Assembly: GCA_001788925.1 (NCBI GenBank)
Contig: MFXS01000004.1
Location: 50,464 to 114,463 of the forward strand
DNA: 64,000 nucleotides
From: Candidatus Peribacteria bacterium RIFCSPHIGHO2_01_FULL_55_13
Lineage (GTDB): Bacteria > Patescibacteriota > Gracilibacteria > Peribacterales > Peribacteraceae
Direction of reading: 5' to 3'
Position 1 is the stretch's first letter; each line of letters opens with the position of its first letter. The notes under the pieces were generated by a model. That model did no database searches. It worked only from the letters and a program-made list of their open reading frames with translations, and had not been told where the DNA came from. A program made the position numbers and the translations under genes. Of the stretch, positions 19,684-23,026 are shown piece after piece.

Positions 19684-19707
19684 GGAGACGCACTGGCAGT
19701 GCGTCTC
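19684..19707 (+). terminator. GAGACG...CGTCTC hairpin 3' of TPR gene
   Basis: GGAGACGCACTG-GC-AGTGCGTCTC, followed by AAATTATTT; weak U-tract. Confidence 0.4.
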
Positions 19708-19863: not shown

Positions 19864-20142
19864 TTGCCATTGCATGGTCGGCGGAAGCATCCGAACGGTA
19901 TTTTTATATTCCTTTCCGGTCTTGATGACAAAATCCGCGAAGCCTTCTCCGGCCGAACACTCGATGTGCCCCAGATCACAGACGATTGCTCCAAGGAGAT
20001 CCGCATCGAGTCGCGCCAGAAATACGCCGCTCCGCGCAAAGCAGTGGAGGAGAACCTGAAGAAGTGGGATGAATCAGCAAGTGCGCCACCGGCGGAGGAT
20101 GAAATGGGGGCGGAGGAGAAGTTTGAAGAGCCGTTGATATAG
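19864..20142 (+). CDS. hypothetical small acidic protein (uncertain)
   Basis: 92-aa ORF in AT-rich stretch, followed immediately by two-hairpin repeat copy 1; competing frames exist. Confidence 0.3.
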   Translation: MPLHGRRKHPNGIFIFLSGLDDKIREAFSGRTLDVPQITDDCSKEIRIESRQKYAAPRKAVEENLKKWDESASAPPAEDEMGAEEKFEEPLI

Positions 20143-20232
20143 CATGGAAGGGAAACCTACGGTTTCCCTCCCATGAACCCTCCTTTCCCTAAGAGGTGGC
20201 GCTCCAGGCAAGCGGAGCTTGCCTTCGCGCAC
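20143..20232. repeat. two-hairpin ~90-nt repeat, copy 1
   Basis: CATGGAAGGGAAACC-TAC-GGTTTCCCTCCCATG ... CCCTAAGAGGTGGCGCTCCAG + hairpin GGCAAGC-GGA-GCTTGCC; aligns with 21816-21911. Confidence 0.8.
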
Positions 20233-20287
20233 TTATTTGATGGGCGGCCTTCCTCTCTCGTCTTACGATCCCTAAAATCCTTTTCAC

Positions 20288-20378
20288 GGAGAGATGGCCG
20301 AGTGGTCGAAGGCGCGCGACTCGAAATCGCGTAGGCCCCAAAAGGGTCTCGAGGGTTCGAATCCCTCTCTCTCCGCCA
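20288..20378 (+). tRNA. tRNA-Ser (anticodon CGA), CCA encoded
   Basis: Acceptor GGAGAGA/TCTCTCC, anticodon loop CTCGAAA, long variable arm, T-arm GAGGGTTCGAATCCCTC, GCCA end. Confidence 0.93.
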
Positions 20379-20525
20379 TTCGACTCGGCCCTGCGGGGGC
20401 CTCGCTCATGGTCCTCGTTTCGCTCGGGCCATTCTTTACCGAGCCGAGCTGAATGACCCTGAGTGAACGAGCGTGAGCGAGTGAATCGAAGGGCCATGAC
20501 TTTCCCTAGCGACGTGGCTCCGCCC

Positions 20526-21374
20526 TTATTCTTTAATTACGTGTTCTTTTTGCAGGATCCGCAAAATATCCTCCATCCTTTCCTGTGTCGCCTCCTTTCC
20601 GGCATCCATGAATTCCATGCTTTTCTGGAAGTGGTACGGAGCGCCGTCGAGTTTCGGCACGATGATGATGTCGCAGGCTGAGGTACTGGCATGCAGGAAC
20701 TCCTGGCTGGCGTAGAGGACTTTCCGGAGCACCTGCGGCAGATAAGGAGCGACCGTCGTATACGTTGGCGTGGTATCCGTGGCAATGATGTAGTCCACCG
20801 TGTGATGTTTTTTGAGCGACTGCACCGGAACGGCGCCGAACGTGCAGAGATCCATAAAACGGGATTTTCCGACTTTCACCGGTTGGAATACCACCGGTAC
20901 CGCGCAACTGGCCGCGAGTGCATCGAGGATCAGGGTCTCCGGGGGAAAGACGTATGTCTCCACGGACGTGAGCAGCGTCGGGAGAAAATCCTGCTTCATC
21001 ACGTTCTTCCACGGGATCGCTTTCAGGATTCTTCCCGCGACGCACATGAACGGAATCCGGCAGTCGGCAATCCGCGCGCCCTGTATATAAGGGGCAAGGA
21101 TCTCCTTCATACGGTGTTCCAGAACGCCGCCTTCCAAGCCGTCGCTCAGGGGGCGCTTTTTCCATGAGGCGACCGTGGAGGGGGTGAGCTTTTTTCCGAT
21201 CTCCCGGATGGTTTTGGTCTCGATACCCAGGGCATAGAGCCCGGCCACCACAGCCCCCATGCTGCTTCCGGCGATGACATCCGGGGAAAGACCTTCCTTT
21301 TCAAGACATTCTACGACCCCGACATTGGCAACTCCGTATGCCGCGCCGCCGGAGAGGACAAGGCCCCAAGACAT
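20526..21374 (-). CDS. patatin-like phospholipase
   Basis: LSGGAAYG oxyanion motif, GSSMG nucleophile elbow and C-terminal D-containing motif. Confidence 0.88.
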   Translation of the reverse strand: MSWGLVLSGGAAYGVANVGVVECLEKEGLSPDVIAGSSMGAVVAGLYALGIETKTIREIGKKLTPSTVASWKKRPLSDGLEGGVLEHRMKEILAPYIQGARIADCRIPFMCVAGRILKAIPWKNVMKQDFLPTLLTSVETYVFPPETLILDALAASCAVPVVFQPVKVGKSRFMDLCTFGAVPVQSLKKHHTVDYIIATDTTPTYTTVAPYLPQVLRKVLYASQEFLHASTSACDIIIVPKLDGAPYHFQKSMEFMDAGKEATQERMEDILRILQKEHVIKE

Positions 21375-21527
21375 AGGCGTATTGTAGGCTACGAAGCGGT
21401 TTTTGCCCTTACTATCGCCGCGAAAATCGCGCTAATCGGCTTATACATTACGTAATTCCTTGCAAAACGCCGATTCCGTCAATTGCTTTTGCAACGATAA
21501 ATTCACCATTAGGCGTAGATTTTTGGC

Positions 21528-21555
21528 TTGCAGAGGCGTTTTGGGCTGTTACAAT
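21528..21555 (+). promoter_or_regulatory. candidate sigma-70 promoter (TTGCAG-16 nt-TACAAT)
   Basis: Hexamers 21528-21533 and 21550-21555, about 30 nt upstream of the DUF1931 ORF. Confidence 0.3.
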
Positions 21556-21586
21556 CTCGCCGTCTACTTCTCTTCCCCCTTATTTC

Positions 21587-21757
21587 ATGTCCTACGTCGT
21601 CGCTTCGAAGATCAAGGAAGTTGTAAAGAAGCACAACATGATGGCCGCCGGCGACCTCGCCGAGGCAGCCAGCGCTTTCCTCGAGGCCGCCCTCAAGGCA
21701 GCCGTGAAGCGCGCCAGCGACAACGGCCGCAAGACCGTTCGTCCGTGCGATCTTTAA
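21587..21757 (+). CDS. DUF1931 histone-fold-like small protein
   Basis: 56-aa ORF not in track: MSYVVASKIKEVVKKHNMMAAGDLAEAASAFLEAALKAAVKRASDNGRKTVRPCDL; pattern matches the DUF1931 family (Aquifex Aq_328-like). Confidence 0.65.
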   Translation: MSYVVASKIKEVVKKHNMMAAGDLAEAASAFLEAALKAAVKRASDNGRKTVRPCDL

Positions 21758-21781
21758 GCATCTCGATTTGCTTATCAAAGT

Positions 21782-21810
21782 GGGGCTGCCGTAAGGCGCC
21801 CCATTTTTTT
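21782..21810 (+). terminator. rho-independent terminator
   Basis: GGGGCTGCC-GTAA-GGCGCCCC followed by ATTTTTTT. Confidence 0.7.
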
Positions 21811-21815
21811 AACTT

Positions 21816-21911
21816 CATGGAAGAGGAACCTACGGTTCCTCTCCCATGGGCCCACTCTTCCCTAAGAGGTGTCGCTCCAGCGCGGGACCCACAAGACCCG
21901 CGCTTCGCGAC
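21816..21911. repeat. two-hairpin ~90-nt repeat, copy 2
   Basis: CATGGAAGAGGAACC-TAC-GGTTCCTCTCCCATGG ... CCCTAAGAGGTGTCGCTCCAG + hairpin CGCGGG...CCCGCG. Confidence 0.8.
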
Positions 21912-21942
21912 ATCTTTTAGATTGGTGCCGTGCTGAAAGGTA

Positions 21943-23026
21943 TTACGCTCTTGCTTCTCTTTTCAACTCCGCATCAATAAACATCTGGATCTCTCCATCG
22001 AGCACCCCCTGCGTATCACTTGTCTCCGTATCGGTCCGGAGATCCTTGACCATCTGATACGGATGCAGGACGTAGCTTCGGATCTGCTGCCCGAAGTCGG
22101 CGCTTTGCGTTGCTCCTTTTAATTCCTTCTTCGTCGCAAGATCGGCGGCCTGCTGCTTTTCCAACAGCTTCGCACGAAGCAATGCCATGGCACGGGTTCG
22201 ATTTTGCAGTTGCGATCGCTCCGTCTGACAGGCAACAACAATGTTGGTGGGGAGATGGGTGATGCGGATCGCCGTCTCCACTTTGTTCACGTTCTGTCCG
22301 CCCGCGCCGCCGCTGCGGAAGGTATCCACCCGAAGCTCGCTGGGATTGATCGTCACTTCCGTTTCTTCGATCTCCGGAAGTACTTCTACCAGTGCGAAGC
22401 TAGTCTGCCGCAGGCTCTTGGCATTAAAGGGAGAGAGGCGAACCAGGCGGTGCGTACCACGTTCGCATTTCAGATTGCCGTAGGCCATCGCCCCTTCTAC
22501 ATAGATCGTCGCAGTCTTGATGCCGGCCTCCTGGCCGTCCGTCTTATCGATCAGCTCCGTCTTCCATCCCTGCCGCTCGCAGTAGCGCAGGTACATCCTG
22601 AGCAGCATCGCCGCCCAGTCCTGGGCCTCGGTGCCGCCTGCTCCTCCGCTTACCGTCAAATAGCAGTGGGCCGTATCAAATTCTCCGGAGAGATAGAGCT
22701 GCGTTTCCACTTCCTTCCATCGCCCGGCAAGTTTGGCATATTCTTTTTCCAGATCAGGAAGATCCGTTTCCGCTGATGTTTCCGCGAGCGAGATCAGATC
22801 CCTTGCCTCGCTGAGCATCGCGTTGACCGGTTCCCAAGTTTTTTTCAGCGCGCGCAGATCGGCGAACAATTTGTTGGCGGCTTTCTGGTCCGACCAAATG
22901 CCCGGATCCTCCGAGCGCTTCTGTAGGTCGTCGATCTTTTTCGGAACGCCTCTGACCTCAAAGAGAGTCCTTACCCGTGTTCAGAGCAGCCATCAGTTCC
23001 CGGAGATGTTTGAGGAGCTCTTCCAT
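21943..23026 (-). CDS. prfB: peptide chain release factor 2 (two frames joined by programmed +1 frameshift)
   Basis: Frame 0 MEELLKHLRELMAALNTGKDSL then CTT TGA G; the +1 frame continues EVRGVPKKIDDLQKRSEDPGIW into the 308-aa ORF with SPF and GGQ motifs. Confidence 0.93.
22958..22963 (-). promoter_or_regulatory. RF2 autoregulatory +1 frameshift site CTTTGA
   Basis: In-frame TGA after codon 22 preceded by CTT, as in the classical prfB recoding site. Confidence 0.85.

What the first reader, a model, noticed from the sequence alone, without database searches (positions are those of the whole stretch)
20143..21911. Two copies of a ~90-nt two-hairpin repeat with compensatory substitutions
Copies at 20143-20232 and 21816-21911 share CATGGAAG-N-G-N-AACC-TAC-GGTT-N-C-N-CTCCCATG, then CCCTAAGAGGTG-N-CGCTCCAG, then a second hairpin. 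In hairpin 1 the arms differ by paired changes (GGGAAA/TTTCCC versus GAGGAA/TTCCTC). In hairpin 2 the stems are entirely different in sequence (GGCAAGC/GCTTGCC versus CGCGGG/CCCGCG) but still pair. Both copies sit immediately 3' of small plus-strand ORFs. Covariation indicates selection for, or conversion within, a structured RNA/DNA element.
Basis: seen in the sequence. Interest (0 to 1): 0.6.

Follow-up and report, generated by a model that had tools for sequence, protein, structure and literature searches.

The report
Folded gene-end repeat family in Peribacteria
The two look-alike stretches are copies of an undescribed ~100-base folded repeat found up to about 30 times per genome in a family of tiny uncultured groundwater bacteria, sitting mostly just after the ends of genes and tRNAs, where it most likely acts as a hairpin-plus-terminator module on the transcript.

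Summary
Both window copies (20143-20241 and 21816-21922, + strand) belong to a dispersed repeat: 10 full and 2 partial copies in this 1.17-Mb Peribacteraceae (CPR) genome, and over 1000 model hits in 109 of 151 family genomes.

Anatomy: a 15-bp hairpin P1, a CU-rich linker, then a second hairpin (P2 and P3 around an almost invariant internal loop TCCAG/CTTCG) and a T-rich tail. On 122 copies, 25 of 27 pairs show changes on both sides and 93.8% of cells pair.

The P1 end lies 0-8 nt after a co-oriented stop codon (54 of 204 copies) or 3-9 nt after a tRNA (32 of 204). Copies persist after the same genes (ftsI-like, rpoD, efp) across genera, yet are present or absent among congeners. Nearly identical copies sit in unrelated flanks.

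There is no Rfam match, no terminal inverted repeat and no target duplication. Three copy-rich genomes have no Y1/RAYT transposase.

Best reading (about 0.5): a semi-mobile 3'-end cassette, transcribed with the upstream gene, acting as stabilising hairpin plus intrinsic terminator.

Earlier notes of this scan describe similar Peribacteria repeats on other DNA. I could not check whether they are the same family.

The parts
20143..20241 (+). Element copy 1, whole unit from CATG to the T-rich tail
   Evidence: Model R1, 108.7 bits. Boundaries from the information profile of 204 copies.
20143..20175 (+). Copy 1 P1: 15-bp hairpin with UAC loop and an A.C mismatch at pair 6:28 (20148 with 20170)
   Evidence: Fold. 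Pair counts.
20176..20198 (+). Copy 1 CU-rich linker (AACCCTCCTTTCCCTAAGAGGTG). No conserved pairing was found for it.
   Evidence: Alignments. Conservation profile.
20199..20230 (+). Copy 1 3' hairpin. P2 is 20199-20202 with 20227-20230. The internal loop is TCCA (20203-20206) opposite TTC (20224-20226). P3 is 20207-20213 with 20217-20223, with loop GGA.
   Evidence: The inner hairpin plus tail is flagged as terminator-like by the consensus scan.
20231..20241 (+). Copy 1 T-rich tail (ACTTATTTGAT)
21816..21922 (+). Element copy 2, whole unit; long-loop P3 variant
   Evidence: Model R1, 106.6 bits.
21816..21848 (+). Copy 2 P1 hairpin
21849..21869 (+). Copy 2 CU-rich linker (GGCCCACTCTTCCCTAAGAGG)
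21870..21912 (+). Copy 2 3' hairpin. P2 is 21870-21875 with 21907-21912. The internal loop is TCCA/TTC. P3 is 21880-21886 with 21897-21903, with a 10-nt loop ACCCACAAGA; this loop motif recurs in other families of the class.
21913..21922 (+). Copy 2 T-rich tail (TCTTTTAGAT)
19864..20142 (+). 92-aa ORF whose TAG stop abuts copy 1. Its C-terminus and stop are conserved in congeners. No Pfam match.
20288..20375 (+). tRNA-Ser gene, 46 nt downstream of copy 1
   Evidence: Rfam tRNA, 60.3 bits. ARAGORN.
21587..21757 (+). 56-aa histone-fold-like ORF upstream of copy 2
   Evidence: Weak PF00808 match, 18 bits, below the cut-off. Conserved in congeners.
21782..21810 (+). Intrinsic-terminator-like hairpin plus T7 run, lying between the histone-fold ORF and copy 2
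   Evidence: Read directly from the sequence. Conserved in congeners that lack copy 2.
21943..22869 (-). Convergent peptide-chain release factor gene. Its stop lies 21 nt from the tail of copy 2.
   Evidence: PF03462 and PF00472.

Best explanation
The two stretches are members of a family-specific dispersed structured repeat of Peribacteraceae (CPR bacteria).

Anatomy of the ~100-nt unit:
- a 15-bp purine/pyrimidine hairpin (P1);
- a single-stranded CU-rich linker;
- a second hairpin (P2 and P3) with an almost invariant internal loop UCCAG/CUUCG;
- a U-rich tail.

Proposed mechanism (inferred, not shown): the + strand as drawn is co-transcribed as the 3' end of the upstream gene or tRNA.
- The second hairpin plus U-tail acts as an intrinsic terminator, probably a leaky one.
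- P1, starting 0-9 nt after the stop codon or the tRNA 3' end, acts as a 3'-end barrier or processing hairpin. This would be like REP/BIME hairpins of E. coli, which stabilise upstream mRNA.
- The invariant internal loop is probably a protein contact.

Shown by the data: the unit is kept for long periods at some gene ends, is now and then copied to new gene ends by an unknown route that leaves no target duplication, and is readily lost.
For: Family and structure:
- 10 full and 2 partial copies in the own genome.
- 109 of 151 family genomes have hits, over 1000 in all. There are 32 copies in each of two near-complete genomes.
- 25 of 27 pairs change on both sides and 93.8% of cells pair, with 0 of 500 shuffles reaching this.

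Strand and position, from 204 copies:
- The upstream neighbour is co-oriented in 119 cases against 48.
- '++' contexts number 54 against 23 '--'.
- The P1 end is within 10 nt of a co-oriented stop codon in 54 copies (mode 2 nt) and of a tRNA 3' end in 32 copies. The tail end is within 10 nt of any gene in only 46.
- One copy starts 10 nt after a 5S rRNA gene, at the end of an rRNA operon.
- 83 of 84 sense-adjacent copies have no T5 run upstream, so the element holds the first terminator-like structure after those genes.

Terminator-like end:
- The T-rich tail is part of the conserved unit, on one strand only.
- Copy 1's inner hairpin plus tail is called terminator-like.

Long-term retention with compensation:
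- The element follows the ftsI-like gene in 5 genera, and rpoD and efp in 2 genera each, with different but complementary P1 stems.
- Within-genome copies are only 68-76% identical on average yet still fold.
Against: - No transcript data.
- G.U pairs are almost absent on the + strand. The one recurrent non-Watson-Crick position in P1 (6:28) is A.C in 102 copies, G-C in 59 and A-U in 36. That would read as G.U on the - strand, which is unusual for a + strand RNA helix.
- About 29% of copies are antisense to the upstream feature, and 21 lie between divergent genes.
- Some copies sit behind the upstream gene's own terminator, window copy 2 among them.
- Copies occur between co-oriented tRNAs and after rpsE and secY. 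If those neighbours are co-transcribed, an efficient terminator there would be harmful.
- The U-tract is modest: on average 4.6-4.8 T in the best 7-nt window, whatever the orientation class.
- Individual copies decay quickly in close relatives.
Confidence: 0.5

Rival explanations
1. A purely DNA-level selfish or neutral palindromic repeat (REP/MITE-like) with no RNA role. In this reading the stems stay perfectly complementary for one of two reasons. Either an unknown recombinase or transposase recognises folded single-stranded DNA, or replication template-switching ('quasipalindrome correction') copies a change in one arm onto the other. The gene-end location would only reflect where insertions are tolerated or targeted.
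For: - Stems are almost exclusively Watson-Crick on both strands, with hardly any wobble intermediates.
- Copies are present or absent among congeners.
- Non-orthologous copies that are 90-95% identical sit in unrelated flanks.
- Window copy 1 is 95-96% identical to a copy at another locus of G004, although the two genomes' flanks are only 74-87% identical.
- The P1 end also abuts the 5' end of antisense tRNA genes in 10 cases, which fits DNA targeting better than a transcript role.
- P3 changes at 4 of 6 pairs between orthologous copies whose remainder is nearly identical.
- Tail-to-tail doublets occur.
- The same intergenic slots hold other unrelated palindromes in relatives.
Against: - No terminal inverted repeats and no target duplication.
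- No Y1/RAYT transposase in three genomes with 26-32 copies.
- Copy numbers are low and copies old (68-76% mean identity within a genome), yet 94% of pairs are kept. Unpaired motifs (TCCAG/CTTCG, the linker) are the most conserved parts, and template switching does not explain that.
- A strand-specific T-tail and a 71:29 sense bias are not expected for a strand-neutral DNA palindrome.
- Positional retention across genera.
Confidence: 0.25
2. A trans-acting or cis-acting regulatory small RNA. The unit would be released from mRNA 3' UTRs and tRNA trailers: P1 as a 5' stem-loop, the CU-rich linker as an anti-Shine-Dalgarno-like seed, and the second hairpin as terminator. It would pair with ribosome-binding sites of the downstream gene or of other mRNAs.
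For: - The layout (stem-loop, unpaired C/U-rich stretch CCUCCUUUCCCU, terminator hairpin with U-tail) resembles that of 3'-UTR-derived and C-rich-seed sRNAs. This comparison rests on my own knowledge of RsaE/RoxS-type sRNAs.
- The linker is well conserved and unpaired.
- Relatives in other families keep P1 plus the linker while the 3' hairpin varies.
- 54 copies lie upstream of a co-oriented gene.
Against: - No expression data.
- No conserved promoter in the unit or its flanks.
- The linker varies between subfamilies (CCCTAAG versus CCGGCAAAG) with no identified target.
- Many copies lie between convergent genes (48).
- Ten to thirty divergent copies per genome is atypical for a seed-based regulator.
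Confidence: 0.1
3. The functional strand is the - strand, either as an antisense or embedded RNA or as the bottom strand of a recombination site. On that strand P1 carries a G.U instead of A.C, the internal loop becomes purine-rich (GAA/UGGA, possibly tandem G.A pairs), and the linker is a strong Shine-Dalgarno-like tract followed by AUG or GUG.
For: - Position 6:28 behaves like G.U / G-C / A-U on the - strand (102, 59 and 36 copies, against 3 that would be A.C).
- Outside that position, A.C outnumbers G.U on the + strand of P1 if 10:24 is also set aside (45 against 19).
- The - strand folds slightly better.
- Three orthologous copies lie antisense inside 23S rRNA genes, so there the - strand is certainly transcribed.
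Against: - The sense bias relative to neighbouring genes favours the + strand.
- The T-rich tail makes sense only on the + strand.
- On the - strand no U-tract follows P1.
- The 5-codon mini-ORF is not conserved: the start codon is lost in about 21% of copies, and the stop is lost in loop variants.
- Outer P2 pairs and position 10:24 show G.U on the + strand.
- The 23S copies are one evolutionary event.
Confidence: 0.08
4. A REP/REPIN family mobilised by one of the genome's RAYT (REP-associated tyrosine transposase) genes.
For: - The own genome encodes three RAYT-like proteins, one of them above the NF047646 cut-off (85.9 bits).
- Tail-to-tail doublets resemble REPINs.
- No target duplication, as in HUH-type transposition.
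Against: - None of the three RAYT genes is flanked by the element. RAYT-1 is flanked by a different 23-nt palindrome (GCCGCACCCCTCCGCGGGTGCGG) and RAYT-3 by GAGACG-type hairpins.
- G160, G029 and G066, with 26-32 copies each, have no PF01797 match.
- The unit is ~100 nt with two unlike hairpins, not a 20-40-nt palindrome with a GTAG head.
Confidence: 0.03

Closest known systems
REP/BIME elements of Escherichia coli and other proteobacteria
   Same: - Short extragenic hairpin repeats located mainly at gene 3' ends and between co-transcribed genes.
- No target duplication.
- Sometimes found in inverted pairs.
- Known roles (from my own knowledge: Newbury et al. 1987; Liang, Rudd & Deutscher 2015) are protection of upstream mRNA from 3' exonucleases, partial termination, and translation effects when the hairpin lies within about 15 nt of the stop codon. 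Here 54 of 204 copies start 0-8 nt after a stop.
   Different: - About 100 nt with two unlike hairpins, a conserved linker and a T-tail, instead of a 20-40-nt palindrome with a GTAG head.
- At most about 32 copies per genome instead of hundreds.
- No link to a RAYT gene.
- Conserved across more than 60 genera.
Structured interspersed repeats with compensatory changes: bcr1-bcr18 of the Bacillus cereus group, ERIC/IRU of enterobacteria, BOX of pneumococcus (PMC3049150), Correia elements of Neisseria
   Same: - 100-150-nt intergenic repeats restricted to one lineage.
- Predicted stable folds; in some cases (bcr, from my own knowledge) compensatory substitutions.
- Co-transcribed with neighbouring genes, with effects on mRNA stability or termination.
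- Modular build: here the 3' hairpin occurs alone (own-genome contig C41:40934-41011) and is swapped between variants.
   Different: - No terminal inverted repeats or TA/TTTAT-type target duplications.
- Precise abutment to stop codons and tRNA ends.
- Much older and more diverged copies.
Intrinsic (Rho-independent) terminators
   Same: The 3' half is a G+C-rich stem followed by a T-rich run on the sense strand of the upstream gene.
   Different: - The stem is interrupted by an invariant 4x3 internal loop.
- The U-tract is only moderate.
- It is preceded by a conserved hairpin and linker.
- The whole unit is repeated and conserved in sequence across genera, which ordinary terminators are not.
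Rickettsia palindromic elements (RPE) and the Peribacteria repeat families noted earlier in this scan (e1-2532001, e1-4399266)
   Same: Roughly 100-nt folded repeats in small genomes that land at different places in different species and are then conserved.
   Different: - RPEs are typically inserted in frame inside genes. In my 204 copies, coding neighbours were called with the element masked, so in-frame insertion was not tested.
- I could not verify whether the earlier-noted Peribacteria families are the same sequence family.

Membership tests
REP/REPIN-RAYT system | A cognate RAYT (Y1 HUH transposase) gene present in genomes that carry the repeat and flanked by it | tested here: not met
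   Three RAYT-like genes exist in the own genome, but none is flanked by the element. G160, G029 and G066 (26-32 copies each) have no PF01797 match.
REP/REPIN-RAYT system | A 20-40-nt imperfect palindrome with a conserved 5' tetranucleotide (GTAG-type), hundreds of copies | tested here: not met
   The unit is ~100 nt with two different hairpins. The maximum seen is 32 copies per genome.
MITE (IS-derived miniature inverted-repeat element) | Terminal inverted repeats and target-site duplication | tested here: not met
   The ends (CATG... and ...T-rich tail) are not inverted repeats. No flanking direct repeats appear at sites compared with and without the element or around near-identical copies.
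IS200/IS605-derived PATE | Subterminal hairpins, insertion 3' of a fixed tetra- or pentanucleotide, and dependence on TnpA (Y1) | tested here: not met
   The left flanks show no fixed motif. Y1 transposase is not found in three copy-rich genomes.
Intrinsic terminator | G+C-rich stem-loop directly followed by a U-tract on the transcribed strand | tested here: inconclusive
   The stem is present and covaries. The tail averages 4.6-4.8 T in the best 7-nt window. Copy 1 is flagged by the consensus scan and copy 2 is not. Termination itself cannot be tested here.
Any Rfam 15 family | Match at or above the family's gathering score | tested here: not met
   Only tRNA reaches threshold in the window. 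At E up to 10 over 20000-22000, nothing credible overlaps the element.
Integron attC site | Arrays of cassettes each ending in an attC with R''/L''/L'/R' boxes, next to intI | tested here: not met
   Copies are scattered over 8 contigs beside housekeeping genes and tRNAs whose order is conserved in relatives lacking the element. There is no GTTRRRY/RYYYAAC pair in the stems. intI was not searched.
Structured RNA element (generic) | Evidence of transcription and of a discrete RNA | not testable with these tools

The most novel reading that the evidence does not exclude
The unit is a genuine functional RNA module of CPR bacteria, not just a tolerated repeat. It would be a protein-recognised 3'-end cassette, with the invariant UCCAG/CUUCG internal loop as binding site, that defines the 3' ends of mRNAs, tRNAs and rRNA operons. 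After processing it could be released as a family of CU-rich (anti-Shine-Dalgarno-like) small RNAs that tune translation. It would be an ancient element, seen at one to four copies per genome in other families of the class, that was amplified in Peribacteraceae.
Probability: 0.2. Interest if true: 0.75.

Novelty: new member of a known kind. Interest (0 to 1): 0.5.

Why it matters
CPR bacteria make up a large share of bacterial diversity, cannot be cultured alone, and almost nothing is known about how their transcripts are ended, processed or regulated.

This repeat is one of the best-supported conserved nucleic-acid structures in the group:
- 25 of 27 pairs covary;
- it is found in more than 100 genomes;
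- it has no Rfam family.

It marks the 3' ends of housekeeping genes, of about a quarter of the analysed copies' neighbouring tRNAs, and of one rRNA operon.

If it is a terminator or stability cassette, it gives annotators a direct handle on operon ends in these genomes. It also gives experimenters a small portable part to test in E. coli or in vitro. If instead it is a DNA-level element, it is a case of a repeat that keeps perfect hairpins for very long times without any recognisable transposase. That would bear on how palindromes are maintained.

Tried and rejected
- Rfam at gathering and at permissive thresholds: no family.
- RAYT/REP hypothesis: RAYT genes were found but are flanked by other palindromes. 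They are not found in three copy-rich genomes. Rejected.
- MITE/TSD: comparisons of sites with and without the element and of near-identical copies show no duplication. Several 'empty' sites turned out to hold remnants (CACGGAAAAGG in G002; tail-like GATTGGTGC in congeners) or other palindromes, so gain versus loss could not be polarised.
- Mini-ORF on the - strand (SD + AUG + 4 codons + UAG in the P1 loop): start and stop are not conserved. Treated as incidental.
- Triplex or alternative pairing of the CU-rich linker with the P1 purine arm: checked by eye on nine copies. The linker looks like a degenerate repeat of the P1 3' arm, but I could not separate covariation from subfamily descent. 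Not pursued.
- K-turn or sarcin-ricin reading of the internal loop on the - strand: the sequences do not fit the consensus as I recall it. Left as a remark.
- Wobble-pair strand test: contradictory between helices (P1 favours the - strand; outer P2 and position 10:24 favour the + strand) and not phylogenetically independent. Inconclusive.
- Gene-function enrichment of neighbours: read by eye from 40 translations. They are broad housekeeping genes, with no single pathway.
- Viral contigs: no exact pattern match.
- The genome contigs pattern scan returned only 17 loci. It was useful for naming the taxon, not for counts.
- Literature: no paper describing the element. I could not retrieve the REP/trans-translation paper I recalled from the library.
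Full report
**1. Observation**

The two stretches are as described.
- The shared block CCCTAAGAGGTGNCGCTCCAG occurs exactly twice in the window, with none in 100 shuffles.
- Each copy folds far below shuffled controls on either strand (z -4.9 to -6.8).
Hairpin 2 is an inner stem (P3) enclosed by an outer stem (P2, GCGC/GCGC in copy 1 and TGTCGC/GCGACA in copy 2). An internal loop, TCCA on the 5' side and TTC on the 3' side, lies between them.
- A T-rich tail follows, so the units are 20143-20241 and 21816-21922.

**2. It is a repeat family**

*Size and host*
- The window lies in a 1.17-Mb, 97.7%-complete genome.
- BLAST and a covariance model built from nine own-genome copies (R1) find 10 full and 2 partial copies on 8 contigs.
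- One partial copy has its P1 3' arm replaced by another hairpin. The other is the 3' hairpin alone.
- Record titles of exact-pattern hits name the group: Candidatus Peribacteraceae / Peribacteria / Peregrinibacteria.

*Distribution*
- R1 hits 109 of 151 sampled genomes of the same family (68 of 84 genera), with more than 1000 matches.
- Two near-complete genomes have 32 copies each.
- Outside the family, a class-wide sample gives only 1-4 weak hits per genome, in 14 of 136 genomes. These keep P1 and the CU-rich linker. Some also carry the long P3 loop motif RNCCCACRAGA seen in window copy 2.
- No Rfam family matches.
- I found no paper describing the element. The Peribacteria genome paper mentions only origin-proximal short repeats.

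**3. Anatomy and conservation**

From 204 distinct copies, conservation begins at CATG and ends in the T-rich tail. The flanks carry no information.
- The most invariant positions are unpaired: the internal loop TCCAG/CTTCG, at nearly 2 bits per position.
- Next come parts of the linker (C..C..TTTCCCT) and the P1 apex (AACC-T.C-GGTT).
- On 122 copies, 93.8% of cells pair and 25 of 27 pairs show changes on both sides (683 cells). None of 500 shuffles reached this, and slid controls gave 39-51% pairing.
- P3 is 98.6% paired, with up to four pair types per position.

Two oddities:
- G.U pairs are almost absent.
- P1 position 6:28 is A.C in 102 copies, G-C in 59, A-U in 36 and G.U in 3. Position 10:24 is often C.U (50) or G.U (24).

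**4. Where it sits**

I used a crude ORF caller with the element masked, plus ARAGORN. Gene starts are therefore unreliable, but stops and tRNA ends are exact.

*Orientation*
- The upstream neighbour is co-oriented in 119 copies against 48.
- Contexts: '++' 54, '+-' 48, '--' 23, '-+' 21.

*Abutment to gene ends*
- The P1 end lies 0-8 nt after a co-oriented stop codon in 54 copies (mode 2 nt).
- It lies 3-9 nt after a co-oriented tRNA in 32 copies. In G066, 12 of 25 analysed copies follow tRNAs.
- Ten more copies abut the 5' end of an antisense tRNA.
- The tail end is within 10 nt of any gene in only 46 copies.
- 83 of 84 sense-adjacent copies have no T5 run upstream.

*rRNA genes*
- One copy starts 10 nt after a 5S rRNA gene.
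- Three orthologous copies lie antisense inside 23S rRNA genes, beside a group I intron.

*The window*
- Copy 1 abuts the TAG of a conserved 92-aa ORF and precedes tRNA-Ser by 46 nt.
- Copy 2 lies behind the terminator of a histone-fold-like ORF, 21 nt from the stop of a convergent release-factor gene.

**5. Dynamics**

*Presence and absence among congeners*
- Both window copies are missing from the orthologous sites of the other six genomes of the genus. These sites hold nothing, other palindromes, or tail-like remnants.
- The copy after rpoD (contig C36) is likewise unique to G000 within the genus, but G160, of another genus, has one at the same place.

*Retention across genera*
- Copies follow the ftsI-like gene in five genera and efp in two genera.
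- A copy follows rpsE in three genomes of the window's genus.
- Their P1 stems differ but still pair: CATG/CATG, CGTG/CACG, CACG/CGTG.

*Age, copying and decay*
- Within-genome copies are old: mean identity 0.68-0.76, with the best pair about 0.81-0.85.
- A few non-orthologous pairs are 90-95% identical, with unrelated flanks and no duplication.
- Window copy 1 is 95-96% identical to a G004 copy at a different locus, while the genomes' flanks are 74-87% identical. This points to occasional copying or exchange.
- Copies also decay fast. In G002, at flanks 98% identical, one copy has an insertion in P1 and a deletion in P3. Another has its interior replaced.

**6. Mobiliser**
- The own genome has three RAYT-like genes. 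They are flanked by other short palindromes.
- G160, G029 and G066, rich in copies, have no Y1 transposase match.
- There are no terminal inverted repeats, no target duplication and no fixed target motif.
- The copying route is unknown.

**7. Interpretation**

*Shown*
- A lineage-specific, structurally constrained repeat placed at gene 3' ends, with a strand-specific T-tail.

*Inferred*
- It is co-transcribed with the upstream gene.
- Its 3' hairpin and U-tail terminate transcription, probably leakily. The reason is that copies occur between co-oriented tRNAs and after rpsE and secY, where the neighbours may be co-transcribed.
- P1 protects or processes the new 3' end, as REP hairpins do in E. 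coli (my own knowledge).
- The invariant internal loop suggests a protein partner.

*Main rival*

The main rival is a DNA-level palindrome maintained by template switching or by an unknown recombinase.
- For it: the wobble-free stems, the turnover, and the abutment to antisense tRNA ends.
- Against it: the conserved unpaired motifs, the strand-specific tail, the sense bias, and retention across genera.

The wobble-pair test for the functional strand is contradictory (section 3), and transcript data could not be obtained. I therefore put the cassette model at about 0.5.

**8. Comparison and novelty**
- It works most like REP/BIME and like the structured interspersed repeats of Firmicutes and enterobacteria.
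- It fails the defining tests for REP-RAYT, MITE, PATE and attC, and it is in no Rfam family.
- I class it as a new member of the known kind 'small dispersed structured intergenic repeats'.
- It is notable for its depth of conservation, low copy number, and precise abutment to stop codons and tRNA ends.
- Earlier notes of this scan report structured repeats in other Peribacteria genomes (e1-2532001, e1-4399266). I could not verify that they are the same family.

Noticed in passing
own genome contig C40, about 85.9-86.3 kb (L092 1440-1878 and flanks 1392-1420, 1968-1995): A RAYT gene (NF047646, 85.9 bits) is flanked on both sides by the 23-nt palindrome GCCGCACCCCTCCGCGGGTGCGG. A similar palindrome sits at 'empty' sites of congeners (G002 at window site 2, G005 at site 1). 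This looks like a classical REP-RAYT pair in a CPR genome.
   Followed up: partly
L094 1104-1210 (own genome contig C36, about 60.8 kb); window 19685-19707: GAGACG...CGTCTC hairpins, some preceded by GTAG, lie next to a second RAYT-like gene (209 aa). They recur after unrelated genes, including window 19685-19707 and the C28 intergenic region. They are probably that RAYT's REP family.
   Followed up: partly
L042 1501-1602, L046 1501-1602, L232 1501-1602: In three genomes of different genera the element lies antisense inside the 23S rRNA gene. In L042 a group I intron (RF00028) lies 144 nt away. The P1 end is about 7 nt from conserved 23S sequence (AAGTTCCGACC...). I did not resolve whether it is part of an intron or intervening sequence.
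   Followed up: partly
own genome contig C39:1529-2000 (L234) and orthologues in G001-G005: The ~400-nt segment carrying the C39 copy is inverted in G000 relative to all five congeners, with the element at one breakpoint. Just upstream of the copy is a highly conserved non-coding stretch (GGCCACCCACCTAACATTCAGGGGACAAGCGTTACTGCCCGACGGTC) with no Rfam match. It may be an unannotated RNA gene.
   Followed up: partly
window 21811-21940 and the orthologous sites in G001-G006: The slot between the histone-fold gene terminator and the release-factor gene holds a different palindrome in almost every congener: a REP, long heptamer-like hairpins, or nothing. Hairpin turnover at a fixed site is rapid.
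   Followed up: partly
own genome contig C5:159-389 (L235): Two element copies lie tail to tail, 30 nt apart, between two co-oriented tRNA genes. One is in the sense orientation after a tRNA. The other is antisense and abuts the next tRNA's 5' end. Similar tail-to-tail doublets occur in L040, L182 and L223.
   Followed up: partly
G160 contig C1 (1,248,026 bases): The length of this single-contig relative matches the 1,248,071 +/- 217 bp reported for the complete Ca. Peribacter riflensis genomes (PMC4736985). Its 32 copies switch predominant strand near 620 kb, as expected if they follow gene and replication direction.
   Followed up: no
window 19864-20142: The 92-aa + strand ORF has a conserved C-terminal sequence and stop position in G002, G004 and G005. 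It is therefore a real gene rather than a decayed remnant. It has no Pfam match.
   Followed up: partly
L093 1383-1449 and 2511-2587 (own genome contig C32): A short repeat encoding ...GLACQAPTD... occurs in frame inside a RAYT-like gene and again about 1.1 kb downstream, in another reading frame context. It may be an in-frame repeat insertion.
   Followed up: no
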